From NCBI RefSeq assembly GCF_009931435.1, contig NZ_CP043414.1: DNA of 64,000 bases, one strand, 5' to 3'. The stretch is from Escherichia coli. GTDB taxonomy: Bacteria > Pseudomonadota > Gammaproteobacteria > Enterobacterales > Enterobacteriaceae. Both the position numbers and the translations under genes were made by a program. Below, piece after piece: positions 1,086-5,320 of this stretch; within the stretch, counting starts at the first letter, position 1; every line of letters starts with the position of its first letter. Under the pieces are notes generated by a model that was not told the DNA's origin, made no database searches, and was given only the letters and a program-made list of their open reading frames with translations.

Positions 1086-2981
1086 ATGTCTGCAACAAAA
1101 CTGACCCGCCGCGAACAACGCGCCCAGGCCCAACATTTTATCGACACCCTGGAAGGCACCGCCTTTCCCAACTCAAAACGCATTTACATCACTGGCACAC
1201 AACCCGGCGTGCGCGTGCCGATGCGTGAGATCCAGCTTAGCCCGACGCTAATTGGCGGCAGCAAAGAACAGCCGCAGTACGAAGAAAACGAAGCGATTCC
1301 GGTCTACGACACCTCCGGTCCGTATGGCGATCCACAGATCGCCATTAACGTGCAGCAAGGACTGGCAAAACTACGCCAGCCGTGGATCGATGCACGCGGC
1401 GATACCGAAGAACTTACCGTGCGCAGTTCCGATTACACTAAAGCACGGCTGGCAGATGATGGCCTCGACGAGCTGCGTTTTAGCGGCGTATTAACCCCAA
1501 AGCGCGCCAAAGCAGGCCACCGCGTCACACAACTGCACTACGCCCGCCAGGGCATCATCACACCGGAGATGGAATTCATCGCCATCCGCGAGAATATGGG
1601 CCGCGAGCGCATTCGTAACGAAGTTTTGTCCCACCAGCATCCGGGAATGAGCTTTGGCGCACGTCTGCCGGAAAATATCACTGCGGAATTTGTCCGTGAT
1701 GAAGTCGCTGCCGGACGTGCCATTATCCCCGCCAACATCAACCATCCGGAATCGGAGCCGATGATTATTGGTCGCAACTTTCTGGTGAAGGTTAACGCCA
1801 ATATCGGCAACTCGGCAGTCACCTCTTCCATCGAAGAAGAAGTGGAAAAGCTGGTATGGTCTACGCGCTGGGGGGCGGATACAGTGATGGATCTTTCCAC
1901 CGGTCGCTATATTCACGAAACTCGCGAATGGATTTTGCGTAACAGCCCGGTGCCGATTGGTACAGTGCCGATCTACCAGGCGCTGGAGAAGGTTAATGGG
2001 ATCGCTGAAGATCTTACCTGGGAAGCGTTCCGGGACACGCTGCTGGAACAGGCCGAGCAAGGTGTGGATTACTTCACTATCCATGCGGGCGTGCTGCTGC
2101 GCTACGTGCCGATGACCGCGAAACGCCTGACCGGTATCGTCTCTCGCGGCGGTTCGATTATGGCGAAATGGTGCCTCTCCCATCATCAGGAAAATTTCCT
2201 CTATCAACACTTCCGCGAAATTTGTGAAATCTGTGCCGCTTATGATGTTTCGTTGTCGCTGGGCGACGGCCTGCGCCCCGGTTCTATTCAGGACGCCAAC
2301 GATGAAGCGCAGTTTGCCGAGCTACATACGCTGGGCGAACTGACCAAAATCGCCTGGGAATATGACGTGCAGGTGATGATTGAAGGTCCAGGCCACGTGC
2401 CGATGCAGATGATCCGCCGCAATATGACCGAGGAGTTAGAGCACTGCCACGAAGCACCGTTCTATACCCTCGGGCCGCTAACTACTGATATTGCGCCGGG
2501 TTATGACCACTTCACATCGGGGATTGGCGCGGCGATGATTGGCTGGTTTGGCTGCGCGATGCTCTGTTACGTAACGCCAAAAGAGCATCTGGGTCTGCCT
2601 AATAAAGAAGATGTTAAGCAGGGGCTTATCACCTATAAGATTGCCGCCCACGCCGCCGACCTGGCGAAAGGGCATCCGGGCGCGCAAATTCGCGATAACG
2701 CCATGTCGAAAGCCCGCTTCGAATTTCGCTGGGAAGACCAGTTTAATCTGGCCCTCGACCCGTTTACCGCCCGCGCTTATCACGATGAAACCCTGCCGCA
2801 AGAGTCCGGCAAAGTCGCCCATTTTTGCTCCATGTGTGGGCCGAAATTCTGCTCGATGAACATCAGCCAGGAAGTGCGTGATTACGCCGCCGCGCAAACC
2901 ATTGAAGTGGGAATGGCGGATATGTCGGAGAACTTCCGTGCCAGAGGCGGAGAAATCTACCTGCGTAAGGAGGAAGCGTGA
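1086..2981 (+). CDS. thiC: Phosphomethylpyrimidine synthase ThiC
   Basis: 631 aa [40 protein letters not shown]... with C-terminal [11 protein letters not shown] motif; first gene of thiCEFSGH. Confidence 0.97.
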
Positions 2982-3616
2982 TTTATCAGCCTGATTTTCC
3001 TCACGTACCTTTTCGTTTAGGACTGTACCCGGTAGTGGACAGCGTACAGTGGATCGAACGTCTGTTGGATGCAGGCGTGCGTACTCTCCAGCTGCGCATC
3101 AAAGATCGGCGCGATGAAGAAGTGGAAGCCGATGTCGTGGCAGCAATTGCGCTGGGCCGCCGCTATAACGCACGGCTGTTTATCAACGATTACTGGCGGC
3201 TGGCGATTAAGCATCAGGCGTATGGCGTCCATCTGGGACAGGAAGATTTGCAATCTACCGATCTCAATGCCATCCGCGCGGCAGGCCTGCGGCTGGGCGT
3301 TTCGACACATGATGATATGGAGATCGACGTCGCGTTGGCAGCACGTCCTTCTTATATCGCGCTAGGACATGTGTTCCCGACGCAAACCAAACAGATGCCT
3401 TCTGCACCGCAGGGGCTGGAACAGCTGGCACGGCATGTTGAGCGCCTGGCGGATTATCCCACCGTGGCGATTGGCGGTATCAGTCTGCCGCGCGCGCCTG
3501 CGGTGATAGCAACGGGTGTCGGCAGTATCGCCGTTGTCAGCGCCATTACTCAAGCCGCAGACTGGCGTTTGGCAACAGCACAGTTGCTGGAAATTGCAGG
3601 AGTTGGCGATGAATGA
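2978..3616 (+). CDS. thiE: Thiamine-phosphate synthase ThiE
   Basis: ORF (GTG start in track) ...[41 protein letters not shown]...; overlaps thiC stop (translational coupling). Confidence 0.94.
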
Positions 3617-4364
3617 CCGTGACTTTATGCGTTATAGCCGCCAAATCCTGCTCGACGATATCGCTCTTGACGGGCAGCAAAAACTGCTCGACAGCCAGGT
3701 GCTGATTATTGGTCTTGGCGGGCTGGGTACACCTGCTGCGCTATACCTGGCGGGGGCTGGTGTCGGGACGCTGGTACTGGCAGATGACGACGATGTGCAT
3801 TTAAGCAATCTGCAACGACAAATCCTCTTTACCACTGAAGATATCGATCGCCCGAAATCGCAGGTCAGCCAACAGCGACTGACACAGTTGAATCCCGACA
3901 TTCAACTGACAACATTACAACAACGGTTAACGGGTAAGGCGTTAAAAGATGCGGTAGCACGGGCCGATGTGGTGCTCGACTGTACCGACAACATGGCGAC
4001 TCGCCAGGAGATTAATGCCGCCTGCGTAGCACTTAACACACCGCTTATCACCGCCAGCGCGGTCGGATTTGGTGGTCAGTTGATGGTGCTGACACCGCCC
4101 TGGGAACAGGGGTGTTACCGCTGCCTGTGGCCGGATAACCAGGAGCCTAAACGCAACTGCCGCACGGCAGGCGTGGTTGGCCCGGTGGTCGGGGTCATGG
4201 GCACGTTACAGGCACTGGAAGCAATTAAGCTATTGAGTGGTATAGAGACCCCTGCGGGATATCTTCGACTGTTTGACGGTAAATTAAACCAATGGCGCAA
4301 CCTGGCGTTGCGCCGCGCCAGCGGTTGCCCGGTATGCGGAGGAAGCAATGCAGATCCTGTTTAA
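3609..4364 (+). CDS. thiF: Sulfur-carrier protein adenylyltransferase ThiF
   Basis: Internal ATG of track ORF 3516..4364 gives [27 protein letters not shown]... (251 aa) with the GLGGLG nucleotide-binding motif; start chosen by homology. Confidence 0.93.
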
Positions 4365-4548
4365 CGATCAACCGATGCAGTGCGTCGCCGGGCTAACTGT
4401 TCACGATCTGCTCGTGCAACTCAATCAACAACAAGCGGGCGCGGCGCTGGCGATTAACCAGCAAATCATCCCGCGAGAGCAGTGGGCGCAACATATCGTG
4501 CAGGATGGCGACCAGATCCTGCTTTTTCAGGTTATTGCAGGGGGTTGA
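4348..4548 (+). CDS. thiS: Sulfur carrier protein ThiS
   Basis: 66 aa [25 protein letters not shown]... ending in the characteristic C-terminal GG. Confidence 0.93.
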
Positions 4549-4549
4549 G

Positions 4550-5320
4550 ATGTTACGTATTGCGGACAAAACGTTTGATTCACATCTGTTTACCGGCACC
4601 GGGAAATTCGCCTCTTCACAATTGATGGTGGAGGCGATCCGCGCTTCCGGCAGCCAACTGGTGACGCTGGCGATGAAACGCGTCGACTTGCGCCAGCACA
4701 ACGATGCTATCCTCGAACCGCTTATCGCGGCGGGTGTGACCCTGCTGCCGAATACTTCCGGGGCGAAAACAGCGGAAGAAGCCATTTTCGCCGCCCATCT
4801 GGCACGTGAAGCATTAGGCACAAACTGGCTAAAATTAGAGATTCACCCTGACGCCCGCTGGCTGTTGCCCGATCCCATCGAAACCCTGAAAGCCGCCGAA
4901 ACACTGGTACAACAGGGATTTGTCGTGCTGCCTTACTGCGGTGCCGATCCGGTGTTGTGCAAACGTCTGGAAGAAGTCGGCTGTGCAGCGGTGATGCCGC
5001 TCGGCGCGCCGATTGGCTCGAATCAGGGACTGGAAACCCGCGCCATGCTGGAGATTATTATCCAGCAAGCCACGGTTCCGGTGGTCGTTGATGCTGGCAT
5101 TGGCGTTCCCAGCCATGCCGCGCAGGCGCTTGAAATGGGAGCCGATGCGGTGTTAGTGAATACGGCGATTGCCGTCGCGGACGATCCCGTCAACATGGCG
5201 AAGGCATTTCGTCTGGCGGTAGACGCCGGCCTGCTGGCACGTCAGTCCGGGCCGGGCAGTCGCAGTCATTTTGCTCATGCCACTAGCCCGCTGACCGGAT
5301 TTCTGGAGGCATCGGCATGA
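4550..5320 (+). CDS. thiG: Thiazole synthase ThiG
   Basis: [20 protein letters not shown]... (256 aa), using the internal ATG of track ORF 4505..5320 directly after the thiS stop. Confidence 0.94.

What the first reader, a model, noticed from the sequence alone, without database searches (positions are those of the whole stretch)
2978..5320. Tight translational coupling throughout thiCEFSGH
Every junction overlaps or abuts: thiC/thiE 4 nt, thiE/thiF 8 nt, thiF/thiS 17 nt, thiS/thiG 1-nt gap, thiG/thiH ATGA overlap. This is consistent with stoichiometric expression of a single riboswitch-controlled transcript. It is expected biology, recorded for completeness.
Basis: seen in the sequence. Interest (0 to 1): 0.15.

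Follow-up and report, generated by a model that had tools for sequence, protein, structure and literature searches.

The report
Compact thiCEFSGH operon; thiE start altered
This is the ordinary, already annotated thiamine-biosynthesis operon of E. coli with its genes packed end to end, and the only unusual detail is that this strain has lost the normal ATG start of thiE and probably starts it from a GTG three bases upstream.

Summary
The five junctions of thiC-E-F-S-G-H measure -4, -8, -17, +1 and -4 nt. Four match the K-12 annotation exactly.

The fifth, thiC/thiE, differs. K-12 and 5,383 of 5,384 complete E. coli genomes that match this junction read TGATG, an ATG start with a 1-nt overlap. 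This window reads TGATT, so the canonical start codon is ATT. Public annotations of this same sequence disagree between a GTG start (212 aa) and an ATT start (211 aa).

The tight layout is conserved across 28 Enterobacteriaceae species. Every internal gene has a strong Shine-Dalgarno inside the upstream gene, while thiC, the riboswitch-controlled gene, has a weak one. A TPP riboswitch lies upstream and a terminator hairpin downstream.

"Coupled and stoichiometric" remains an inference. Published E. coli data show overlapping pairs vary in relative translation about as much as non-overlapping ones, and I found no conserved occluding RNA structure.

Verdict: known, expected biology with a minor start-codon polymorphism. 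Low interest.

The parts
905..1005 (+). TPP riboswitch aptamer (thiC leader)
   Evidence: Rfam RF00059, 74.8 bits against a gathering score of 54.3, full-length model. The leader 854-1090 differs from K-12 at 4 of 237 positions, none in the aptamer.
1086..2981 (+). thiC (631 aa), first gene. It has a weak Shine-Dalgarno.
   Evidence: ORF. NCBIfam NF006763, 1070.9 bits. SD pairing only -3.3 kcal/mol, the median of 27 Enterobacteriaceae loci.
2966..2973 (+). TAAGGAGG Shine-Dalgarno for thiE, inside the last codons of thiC
   Evidence: -11.9 kcal/mol against the anti-SD. It lies 4 nt before GTG 2978 and 7 nt before ATT 2981, read directly from the sequence.
2978..3616 (+). thiE read from GTG 2978 (212 aa, GTGA overlap with the thiC stop). 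The codon homologous to the usual ATG start is ATT at 2981-2983.
   Evidence: NCBIfam NF002904 aligns residues 3-211 to profile positions 2-210, which places the profile's Met at the ATT codon. Two genera use an ATG at the GTG position.
3609..4364 (+). thiF (251 aa). ATG lies 8 nt inside thiE (ATGAATGA).
   Evidence: Same length and N-terminus as the ThiF chain of PDB 1ZUD, residues 1-251. The start is conserved as ATG at offset 0 in all 28 Enterobacteriaceae species loci.
4348..4548 (+). thiS (66 aa, ends in GG). Its start lies 17 nt inside thiF.
   Evidence: NCBIfam TIGR01683. The overlap is -17 in 20 and -20 in 8 Enterobacteriaceae loci.
4550..5320 (+). thiG (256 aa). It starts 1 nt after the thiS stop (TGA-G-ATG).
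   Evidence: Pfam PF05690 on the identical product. The gap is +1 in 27 of 28 Enterobacteriaceae loci.
5317..6450 (+). thiH (377 aa), ATGA overlap with the thiG stop
   Evidence: NCBIfam TIGR02351, 526 bits. The junction is -4 in 21 and -1 in 5 Enterobacteriaceae loci.
6498..6534 (+). Hairpin followed by a U-run about 50 nt after thiH. Candidate intrinsic terminator of the operon.
   Evidence: MFE -17 kcal/mol, z = -4.99, 0 of 200 shuffles fold as well. Sequence.

Best explanation
The region is the thiCEFSGH thiamine-biosynthesis operon of an E. coli strain. It is transcribed as one unit behind a TPP riboswitch.

Its five internal junctions leave no untranslated RNA between genes. Each downstream start codon sits inside or next to the upstream stop. 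Each is preceded by a strong Shine-Dalgarno embedded in the upstream coding sequence. Only thiC, the gene the riboswitch acts on, has a weak ribosome-binding site.

The most likely consequences (inferred, not shown):
- Ribosomes finishing one gene keep the next initiation site open or close at hand, so translation of downstream genes partly follows translation of thiC.
- The continuously translated mRNA offers no entry point for Rho.
- Together these let the single riboswitch decision at thiC propagate to all six genes.

This gives co-regulation. It does not necessarily give equal amounts, because each junction has its own Shine-Dalgarno strength and overlap length.

At the thiC/thiE junction this strain carries G to T at position 2983, which destroys the canonical ATG (now ATT). 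thiE is then most likely initiated at the in-frame GTG at 2978. That GTG is formed by the last base of thiC's Ala codon plus TG of its TGA stop. The result converts a TGATG (-1) junction into a GTGA (-4) junction and adds one residue (Met-Ile-Tyr-Gln...).
For: Identity:
- Riboswitch and NCBIfam equivalogs.
- The operon is present in 5,419 of 5,426 complete E. coli genomes, and its annotation in the best-matching genome is the same as K-12.

Junction geometry is verified.

Conservation in 28 Enterobacteriaceae species:
- thiC/thiE: -1 in 24, -4 in 2.
- thiE/thiF: -8 in 23, -14 in 5.
- thiF/thiS: -17 in 20, -20 in 8.
- thiS/thiG: +1 in 27, +2 in 1.
- thiG/thiH: -4 in 21, -1 in 5.

Shine-Dalgarno strength:
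- Internal genes have medians of -6.9 to -11.7 kcal/mol, and 93-100% of loci are at or below -6.
- Only 7.5% of random in-operon positions reach that.
- thiC has a median of -3.3.

Start positions: for each gene, some species have no alternative upstream in-frame start.

Evidence for the GTG start of thiE:
- Superficieibacter (ATGAAT) and Mangrovibacter (ATGATT, N-terminus MIYQ) use an ATG at exactly this position. Superficieibacter also has the same 4-nt SD spacing.
- GUG initiates at 10-100% of AUG, and AUU at 1-2% (bioRxiv 10.1101/063800).
- The ATT allele is fixed in a lineage. The window is identical over 8,364 nt to GCA_002965045.1, the exact ThiF is indexed in 35 blocks of the collection, and 22 of the 24 contigs read resemble L004.
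- thiE shows purifying selection, with dN/dS of 0.069 against K-12. Against the nearest ATG-bearing allele it has 23 nt differences but only 4 aa differences.
- The same G to T change arose separately on a K-12-like haplotype in strain 3PT, which is 99.86% identical to K-12.
- The ThiE fold core begins near residue 18-20, so one extra N-terminal residue should be harmless.
Against: - No experiment on coupling in this operon was found in the searchable library.
- Predicted accessibility of the five internal ribosome-binding sites is unremarkable, at the 22nd to 81st percentile of all 20-mers in the mRNA.
- The hairpin that pairs the thiE Shine-Dalgarno in this window is not significant (z = -1.63, 13 of 200 shuffles) and is not conserved (alifold -0.17 kcal/mol). 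The RNA-unfolding route to coupling therefore has no support here.
- Strong Shine-Dalgarno motifs would also permit independent initiation.
- RRF-depletion profiling argues that reinitiation is not the dominant mechanism in E. coli (PMC7538156).
- Overlapping pairs genome-wide do not have tighter translation ratios (PMC5318159).
- For GTG, the 4-nt spacing from GGAGG is at the short end of the functional range, whereas ATT keeps the ancestral 7-nt spacing. This point rests on my own knowledge of SD spacing optima.
- NCBI's pipeline calls the ATT start in two genomes.
Confidence: 0.75

Rival explanations
1. The overlaps are a by-product of genome compaction and easy mutational paths, such as stop-codon drift and NTGA arising from any start codon. 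Each thi gene is translated independently from its own strong Shine-Dalgarno, with no meaningful dependence on the upstream gene.
For: - Overlap lengths are not fixed outside Enterobacteriaceae. In 20 other Enterobacterales loci, thiC/thiE ranges from -1 to -17 and thiF/thiS is -4 in 11, with some gaps of 4-99 nt at thiE/thiF.
- Every internal gene has a strong Shine-Dalgarno, and the ribosome-binding sites are not predicted to be unusually closed.
- The review attributes the abundance of -4 spacing to ease of evolution (PMC12548453).
- bioBF overlaps yet initiates de novo (PMC6728339).
Against: - Tightness itself, overlapping or within 2 nt, persists across Enterobacteriaceae at all five junctions while the sequence diverges to about 77-82% identity.
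- Four of five tested native E. coli overlapping pairs were strictly coupled (PMC6728339).
- A run of five such junctions is rarer than the local background of 6 in 21.
Confidence: 0.3
2. In this strain thiE still starts at the ancestral position, now an AUU codon with a 1-nt overlap, as NCBI's pipeline annotates it. This would make it a non-canonical AUU-initiated gene like infC and pcnB, with reduced ThiE synthesis.
For: - PGAP calls the 211-aa product from ATT in strain 3PT and in GCA_009899265.1.
- ATT keeps the ancestral 7-nt spacing from TAAGGAGG.
- AUU supports detectable initiation, and two E. coli genes are confirmed to use it (10.1101/063800).
- A ribosome terminating at UGA 2979-2981 is directly adjacent to it.
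Against: - AUU initiates at only 1-2% of AUG, whereas GUG belongs to the 10-100% class.
- An in-frame GUG lies 3 nt upstream within reach of the same Shine-Dalgarno.
- Two related genera use that exact position as their ATG start.
- The PGAP call follows from protein homology and is not evidence about initiation.
Confidence: 0.2
3. The ATG to ATT change is a loss-of-function or strong knock-down of thiE. The lineage would depend on external thiamine or on a bypass activity, so the thiC/thiE 'coupling' is moot.
For: - The canonical start is absent in this lineage and in only 1 of 5,384 complete E. coli genomes that match this junction. Such rarity is expected for a deleterious allele.
Against: - All six ORFs are intact.
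- thiE dN/dS is 0.069 against K-12, and most differences from the nearest ATG allele are synonymous.
- The allele is shared by a lineage of assemblies rather than one isolate.
- A usable GTG and Shine-Dalgarno are present.
Confidence: 0.07

Closest known systems
E. coli K-12 thiCEFSGH operon (b3994-b3990, b4407) with the thiC TPP riboswitch
   Same: - Same six genes, order and lengths.
- Same riboswitch, with an aptamer identical to K-12.
- Four of five junctions are identical to the base (-8, -17, +1, -4).
- 95.9% DNA identity over 5,685 nt.
   Different: - The thiE start codon ATG is ATT here, so the junction reads GTGATT instead of GTGATG.
- The single spacer base between thiS and thiG is G instead of A.
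- The allele is divergent. The best complete E. coli genome is 98.6% identical over the operon, while another part of the window is 99.8% identical to E. coli.
Translationally coupled overlapping gene pairs (NTGA, TGATG and -8 classes; termination-reinitiation or RNA-unfolding models)
   Same: The stop/start geometry and intragenic Shine-Dalgarno motifs match the classes enriched across prokaryotes and shown to be coupled in 4 of 5 tested E. coli pairs (PMC12548453; PMC6728339).
   Different: - Coupling has not been measured for any thi junction.
- No occluding structure was found.
- The -17 overlap is longer than the classes tested, and coupling declines with overlap length.
thiC/thiE junctions of Mangrovibacter and Superficieibacter (ATGA, -4)
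   Same: The start sits at the same position as the window's GTG, one codon upstream of the usual Enterobacteriaceae start. Mangrovibacter even has the same second codon ATT, giving MIYQ.
   Different: Those genera use ATG. The window uses GTG, created passively by thiC's GCG-TGA ending.
AUU-initiated E. coli genes infC and pcnB
   Same: An ATT occupies the homologous start position and is annotated as the start by PGAP in two genomes.
   Different: A canonical in-frame GTG lies 3 nt upstream. There is no evidence of IF3-type autoregulation, and AUU use is untested.

Membership tests
thiCEFSGH operon (enterobacterial thiamine biosynthesis) | Six genes thiC, thiE, thiF, thiS, thiG and thiH in this order on one strand | tested here: met
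   NCBIfam equivalogs for ThiC, ThiE, ThiF, ThiS and ThiH. Pfam ThiG on the identical product. Same order and lengths as K-12.
thiCEFSGH operon (enterobacterial thiamine biosynthesis) | TPP riboswitch in the thiC leader | tested here: met
   RF00059 at 905-1005, 74.8 bits against a gathering score of 54.3. Aptamer identical to K-12.
thiCEFSGH operon (enterobacterial thiamine biosynthesis) | A single transcript covering all six genes | not testable with these tools
   Consistent only. There is no excess of promoter-like or terminator-like sites inside and a terminator-like hairpin after thiH. The literature treats it as one operon (PMC5234074).
Translationally coupled gene pairs | Stop and start overlap or lie within a few nucleotides | tested here: met
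   -4 (or -1), -8, -17, +1 and -4. Conserved in 28 Enterobacteriaceae species.
Translationally coupled gene pairs | Shine-Dalgarno for the downstream gene inside the upstream ORF | tested here: met
   -6.9 to -11.9 kcal/mol in the window. 93-100% of Enterobacteriaceae loci are at or below -6, against 7.5% of background positions.
Translationally coupled gene pairs | Downstream translation depends on translation of the upstream gene | not testable with these tools
   This needs premature-stop reporter constructs or ribosome profiling. No published test for thi junctions was found.
Translationally coupled gene pairs | RNA structure that blocks independent initiation at the downstream start (unfolding model) | tested here: not met
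   - RBS accessibility lies at the 22nd to 81st percentile.
- The thiC/thiE hairpin has z = -1.63.
- There is no conserved consensus structure.
- Only the thiC/thiE junction was tested by alignment.
Proportional (stoichiometric) synthesis of complex subunits | Adjacent genes encode partners of a physical complex | tested here: inconclusive
   - ThiF has a solved chain in 1ZUD, and a review lists 1ZUD for both ThiF and ThiS (PMC3020362).
- A ThiGH complex is known only from a reference title.
- ThiC and ThiE are not known partners of the other proteins (own knowledge).
Proportional (stoichiometric) synthesis of complex subunits | Measured synthesis rates in proportion to subunit stoichiometry | not tested
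Genes with a non-canonical AUU start (infC, pcnB type) | AUU at the start position with no canonical start available | tested here: not met
   ATT is at the homologous position, but an in-frame GTG lies 3 nt upstream behind the same Shine-Dalgarno.

The most novel reading that the evidence does not exclude
In this E. coli lineage the thiE start has moved. The ancestral AUG was lost, and initiation is either taken over by a GUG that exists only because of how thiC ends (GCG-UGA), or continues at AUU.

The first case would be a natural, recurrent example of a latent back-up start codon inside a stop/start overlap that buffers loss of the main start. The second would add a third AUU-initiated E. 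coli gene, with ThiE output held up only by coupling to thiC termination.
Probability: 0.2. Interest if true: 0.35.

Novelty: already known. Interest (0 to 1): 0.12.

Why it matters
It matters little for new biology. The junction layout is already in the K-12 annotation, and its types (-4, -1, -8, +1) are the standard ones in bacterial operons.

There are two practical points:
- Overlap should not be read as proof of coupling or of equal protein amounts.
- The thiE start in this lineage is annotated in two different ways in public records. This is a small concrete case where a start-codon polymorphism changes a gene model. It could be settled with one N-terminal peptide.

Tried and rejected
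- **Occluding hairpin at thiC/thiE.** In the window the thiE Shine-Dalgarno pairs with the codons for Asp-Phe-Pro (MFE -13.8 kcal/mol). It is not significant (z = -1.63), and RNAalifold on 27 Enterobacteriaceae sequences gives no such structure (-0.17 kcal/mol). Rejected as evidence for the unfolding model.
- **Local accessibility of all ribosome-binding sites.** Nothing unusual was found.
- **Quantitative expression data for the thi genes.** Li 2014, Schmidt 2016 and Lalanne 2018 are not held. The Mori 2021 supplements are cut before the thi entries. Saito 2020 and Burkhardt 2017 supplements contain no thi rows. The stoichiometry claim could not be tested.
- **Longer ORF starts.** GTG 3516 for thiF and ATG 4505 for thiG are listed mechanically. 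Both were rejected because the K-12-type starts are conserved at offset 0 in all Enterobacteriaceae loci. In several species those starts are the first start in the ORF. The ThiF chain in 1ZUD also begins at the same residue.
- **Sequencing error as the source of the ATT.** Rejected for this lineage, because identical sequence occurs in independent assemblies. It remains possible for the single 3PT record.
- **Pseudogenisation of the operon.** Rejected, because the ORFs are intact and dN/dS is low.
- **Junction calls for the Vibrio and Aeromonas loci.** Not used, because start prediction by extrapolation is unreliable at that divergence.
- **The 90% cluster returned for the 212-aa ThiE.** It mixes ThiC, ThiH and ThiE entries. 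I used only the exact-sequence contig counts from it.
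Full report
**What is there**

The window carries a TPP riboswitch at 905-1005 (Rfam RF00059, 74.8 bits, full-length). 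Six co-directional ORFs follow it.

NCBIfam equivalog models identify ThiC, ThiE, ThiF, ThiS and ThiH. The fifth product carries Pfam ThiG. Order and lengths match E. coli K-12 thiCEFSGH.

The operon is found in 5,419 of 5,426 complete E. coli genomes. This allele is 95.9% identical to K-12 and at best 98.6-98.8% identical to any complete genome. Another part of the window is 99.8% identical to E. coli strains. The source is therefore an E. coli with a divergent thi allele. The first 8.4 kb of the window is identical over 8,364 nt to a contig of assembly GCA_002965045.1.

**Checking the observation**

A script gives the following layout. The sequence was also read directly.

| Gene | Coordinates |
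|---|---|
| thiC | 1086-2981 |
| thiE | 2978 (GTG)-3616 |
| thiF | 3609-4364 |
| thiS | 4348-4548 |
| thiG | 4550-5320 |
| thiH | 5317-6450 |

| Junction | Sequence | Distance here | K-12 |
|---|---|---|---|
| thiC/thiE | GTGA | -4 | -1 |
| thiE/thiF | ATGAATGA | -8 | -8 |
| thiF/thiS | (17-nt overlap) | -17 | -17 |
| thiS/thiG | TGA-G-ATG | +1 | +1 |
| thiG/thiH | ATGA | -4 | -4 |

Four junctions are the same as in K-12 and one differs.

**Start choices**

The listed starts are well supported:
- In all 28 Enterobacteriaceae species loci the homologous position of the thiF, thiS, thiG and thiH starts is an ATG, apart from one partial metagenome contig (L030) that has GTG at thiS and thiH and two loci with an ATG one codon upstream at thiH.
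- For each gene there are species in which that codon is the first possible start in the ORF.
- The crystallised ThiF chain (1ZUD) has the same 251 residues from Met-Asn-Asp.
- The longer mechanical ORFs (GTG 3516, ATG 4505) are therefore not the genes.

**The one real difference**

At thiC/thiE, K-12 and the closest complete genome read GCG-TGA-TG-TAT. This is TGATG, an ATG start with a 1-nt overlap. The window reads GCG-TGA-TT-TAT, so the start codon is ATT.

A 54-nt query across the junction matches 5,384 complete E. coli genomes, and only one is identical: strain 3PT. That strain's operon is 99.86% identical to K-12. The same G to T change therefore arose separately there, or is an error in that single record.

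In the window's own lineage the change is real. Independent assemblies carry it, and the exact ThiF protein is indexed in 35 blocks of the collection.

Public gene models for this same sequence disagree. One assembly calls a 212-aa ThiE from the GTG at 2978. Another assembly, and PGAP for strain 3PT, call a 211-aa ThiE from the ATT. The NCBIfam ThiE profile places its first residue on the ATT codon.

**Which start is used**

I judge GTG 2978 the more likely start, at about 0.7.
- GUG belongs to the class initiating at 10-100% of AUG, and AUU initiates at 1-2% (10.1101/063800).
- The GTG lies 4 nt after a perfect TAAGGAGG.
- Superficieibacter (AGGAGG-aagt-ATGAAT) and Mangrovibacter (ATGATT, N-terminus MIYQ) use an ATG at exactly this position as their thiE start.
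- The ThiE fold begins around residue 18-20, so one extra residue should not matter.
- thiE remains under purifying selection. dN/dS is 0.069 against K-12. Against the nearest ATG allele it has 23 nt but only 4 aa differences.

Against this, ATT keeps the ancestral 7-nt Shine-Dalgarno spacing and lies directly after the thiC stop. Some initiation there cannot be excluded.

**Is the tight packing more than chance, and is it conserved?**

In a syntenic annotated E. coli genome, 6 of the 21 other same-strand CDS pairs in the 50 kb that correspond to about window 1-50,000 are overlapping or abutting. This agrees with published figures of about 15% of all pairs and more than 30% of operon pairs. 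Five of five is uncommon, but it is built from the commonest junction types.

A scan of one genome per species with ThiG returned 80 loci. The counts for 28 Enterobacteriaceae species are below.

| Junction | Distances found |
|---|---|
| thiC/thiE | -1 in 24, -4 in 2 |
| thiE/thiF | -8 in 23, -14 in 5 |
| thiF/thiS | -17 in 20, -20 in 8 |
| thiS/thiG | +1 in 27, +2 in 1 |
| thiG/thiH | -4 in 21, -1 in 5 |

In other Enterobacterales the junctions stay mostly overlapping, but the lengths change and a few gaps appear. What is kept is tightness, not a particular overlap.

Strong Shine-Dalgarno motifs precede every internal start, with medians of -6.9 to -11.7 kcal/mol. Between 93% and 100% of loci are at or below -6, against 7.5% of random in-operon positions. 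thiC itself has a weak one at -3.3.

**Mechanism**

Inferred: with no untranslated gaps and a ribosome-binding site at every stop, translation of thiC is relayed down the mRNA. The transcript is also protected from Rho, so one regulatory decision governs all six genes.

A hairpin with a U-run at 6498-6534 (z = -4.99) is the likely end of the transcript.

Coupling at these junctions has not been measured, and no paper in the library tests it.

I looked for the RNA structures that the unfolding model needs and did not find them. RBS accessibility is ordinary. The only notable hairpin, at thiC/thiE, is neither significant nor conserved.

Published E. coli work also weakens the inference:
- One of five native overlapping pairs is uncoupled.
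- Reinitiation is not dominant.
- Coupling weakens with longer overlaps.
- Overlapping pairs are as variable in relative translation as others.

"Stoichiometric expression" is thus plausible at most for the partners ThiF/ThiS and ThiG/ThiH. It is untested, because I could not reach any data set with thi synthesis rates.

**Verdict**

The feature is already known and expected. The only new detail is a rare start-codon polymorphism in thiE that shifts the junction from -1 to -4 and splits public annotations. Interest is low.

Noticed in passing
window 2981-2983: The canonical thiE start codon ATG is ATT in this strain (G to T at 2983). Only 1 of 5,384 complete E. coli genomes that match this junction shares it, and on a different, K-12-like haplotype. 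Public annotations of the same sequence call either GTG 2978 (212 aa) or ATT 2981 (211 aa).
   Followed up: yes
window 1-6605: The thi region is a divergent allele. It is 95.9% identical to K-12, 94.9% to Escherichia sp. MOD1-EC7003, and at best 98.6-98.8% to any complete E. coli genome. Window 40000-46000 is 99.8% identical to several E. coli strains. This suggests old polymorphism or recombination at the thi locus.
   Followed up: partly
window 40000-46000: A sugar-utilisation cluster (ABC transporter, FGGY kinase, L-ribulose-5-phosphate 3-epimerase, ManD). Only 145 of 5,426 complete E. coli genomes cover at least 80% of it, so it is accessory DNA between oxyR and argH.
   Followed up: no
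window 6498-6534 and 6647-6670: Two hairpins lie between the convergent genes thiH and rpoC. The first, with a U-run and z = -4.99, was missed by the consensus scan because of its large loop. It is the likely thi terminator. The second, AAAAACCCGCCGAAGCGGGTTTTT, is symmetric and probably serves rpoC.
   Followed up: partly
window 1071-1085, and the thiC starts of L006-L033: thiC, the riboswitch-controlled first gene, has a weak Shine-Dalgarno (about -3.3 kcal/mol) in all Enterobacteriaceae examined. All five downstream genes have strong ones.
   Followed up: partly
window 4549: The single spacer base between the thiS stop and the thiG start is G here and A in K-12. The 1-nt gap itself is the most conserved junction, at +1 in 27 of 28 Enterobacteriaceae loci.
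   Followed up: partly
L051-L085 (Vibrio, Aeromonas, Photobacterium loci): The ThiE-homologous region begins 500-900 nt after the thiC stop. This suggests a long N-terminal extension, a fusion or an extra gene before the ThiE domain in these groups. My start caller is unreliable there.
   Followed up: no
L086 19361-19416 (syntenic E. coli genome, btuB/murI): btuB and murI are annotated with a 56-nt overlap. This is the longest same-strand overlap in the region syntenic to the window.
   Followed up: no
(protein collection, not the window): The 90%-identity cluster returned for the 212-aa ThiE contains ThiC, ThiH and ThiE entries from several genera. This looks like a clustering artefact of the database.
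   Followed up: no
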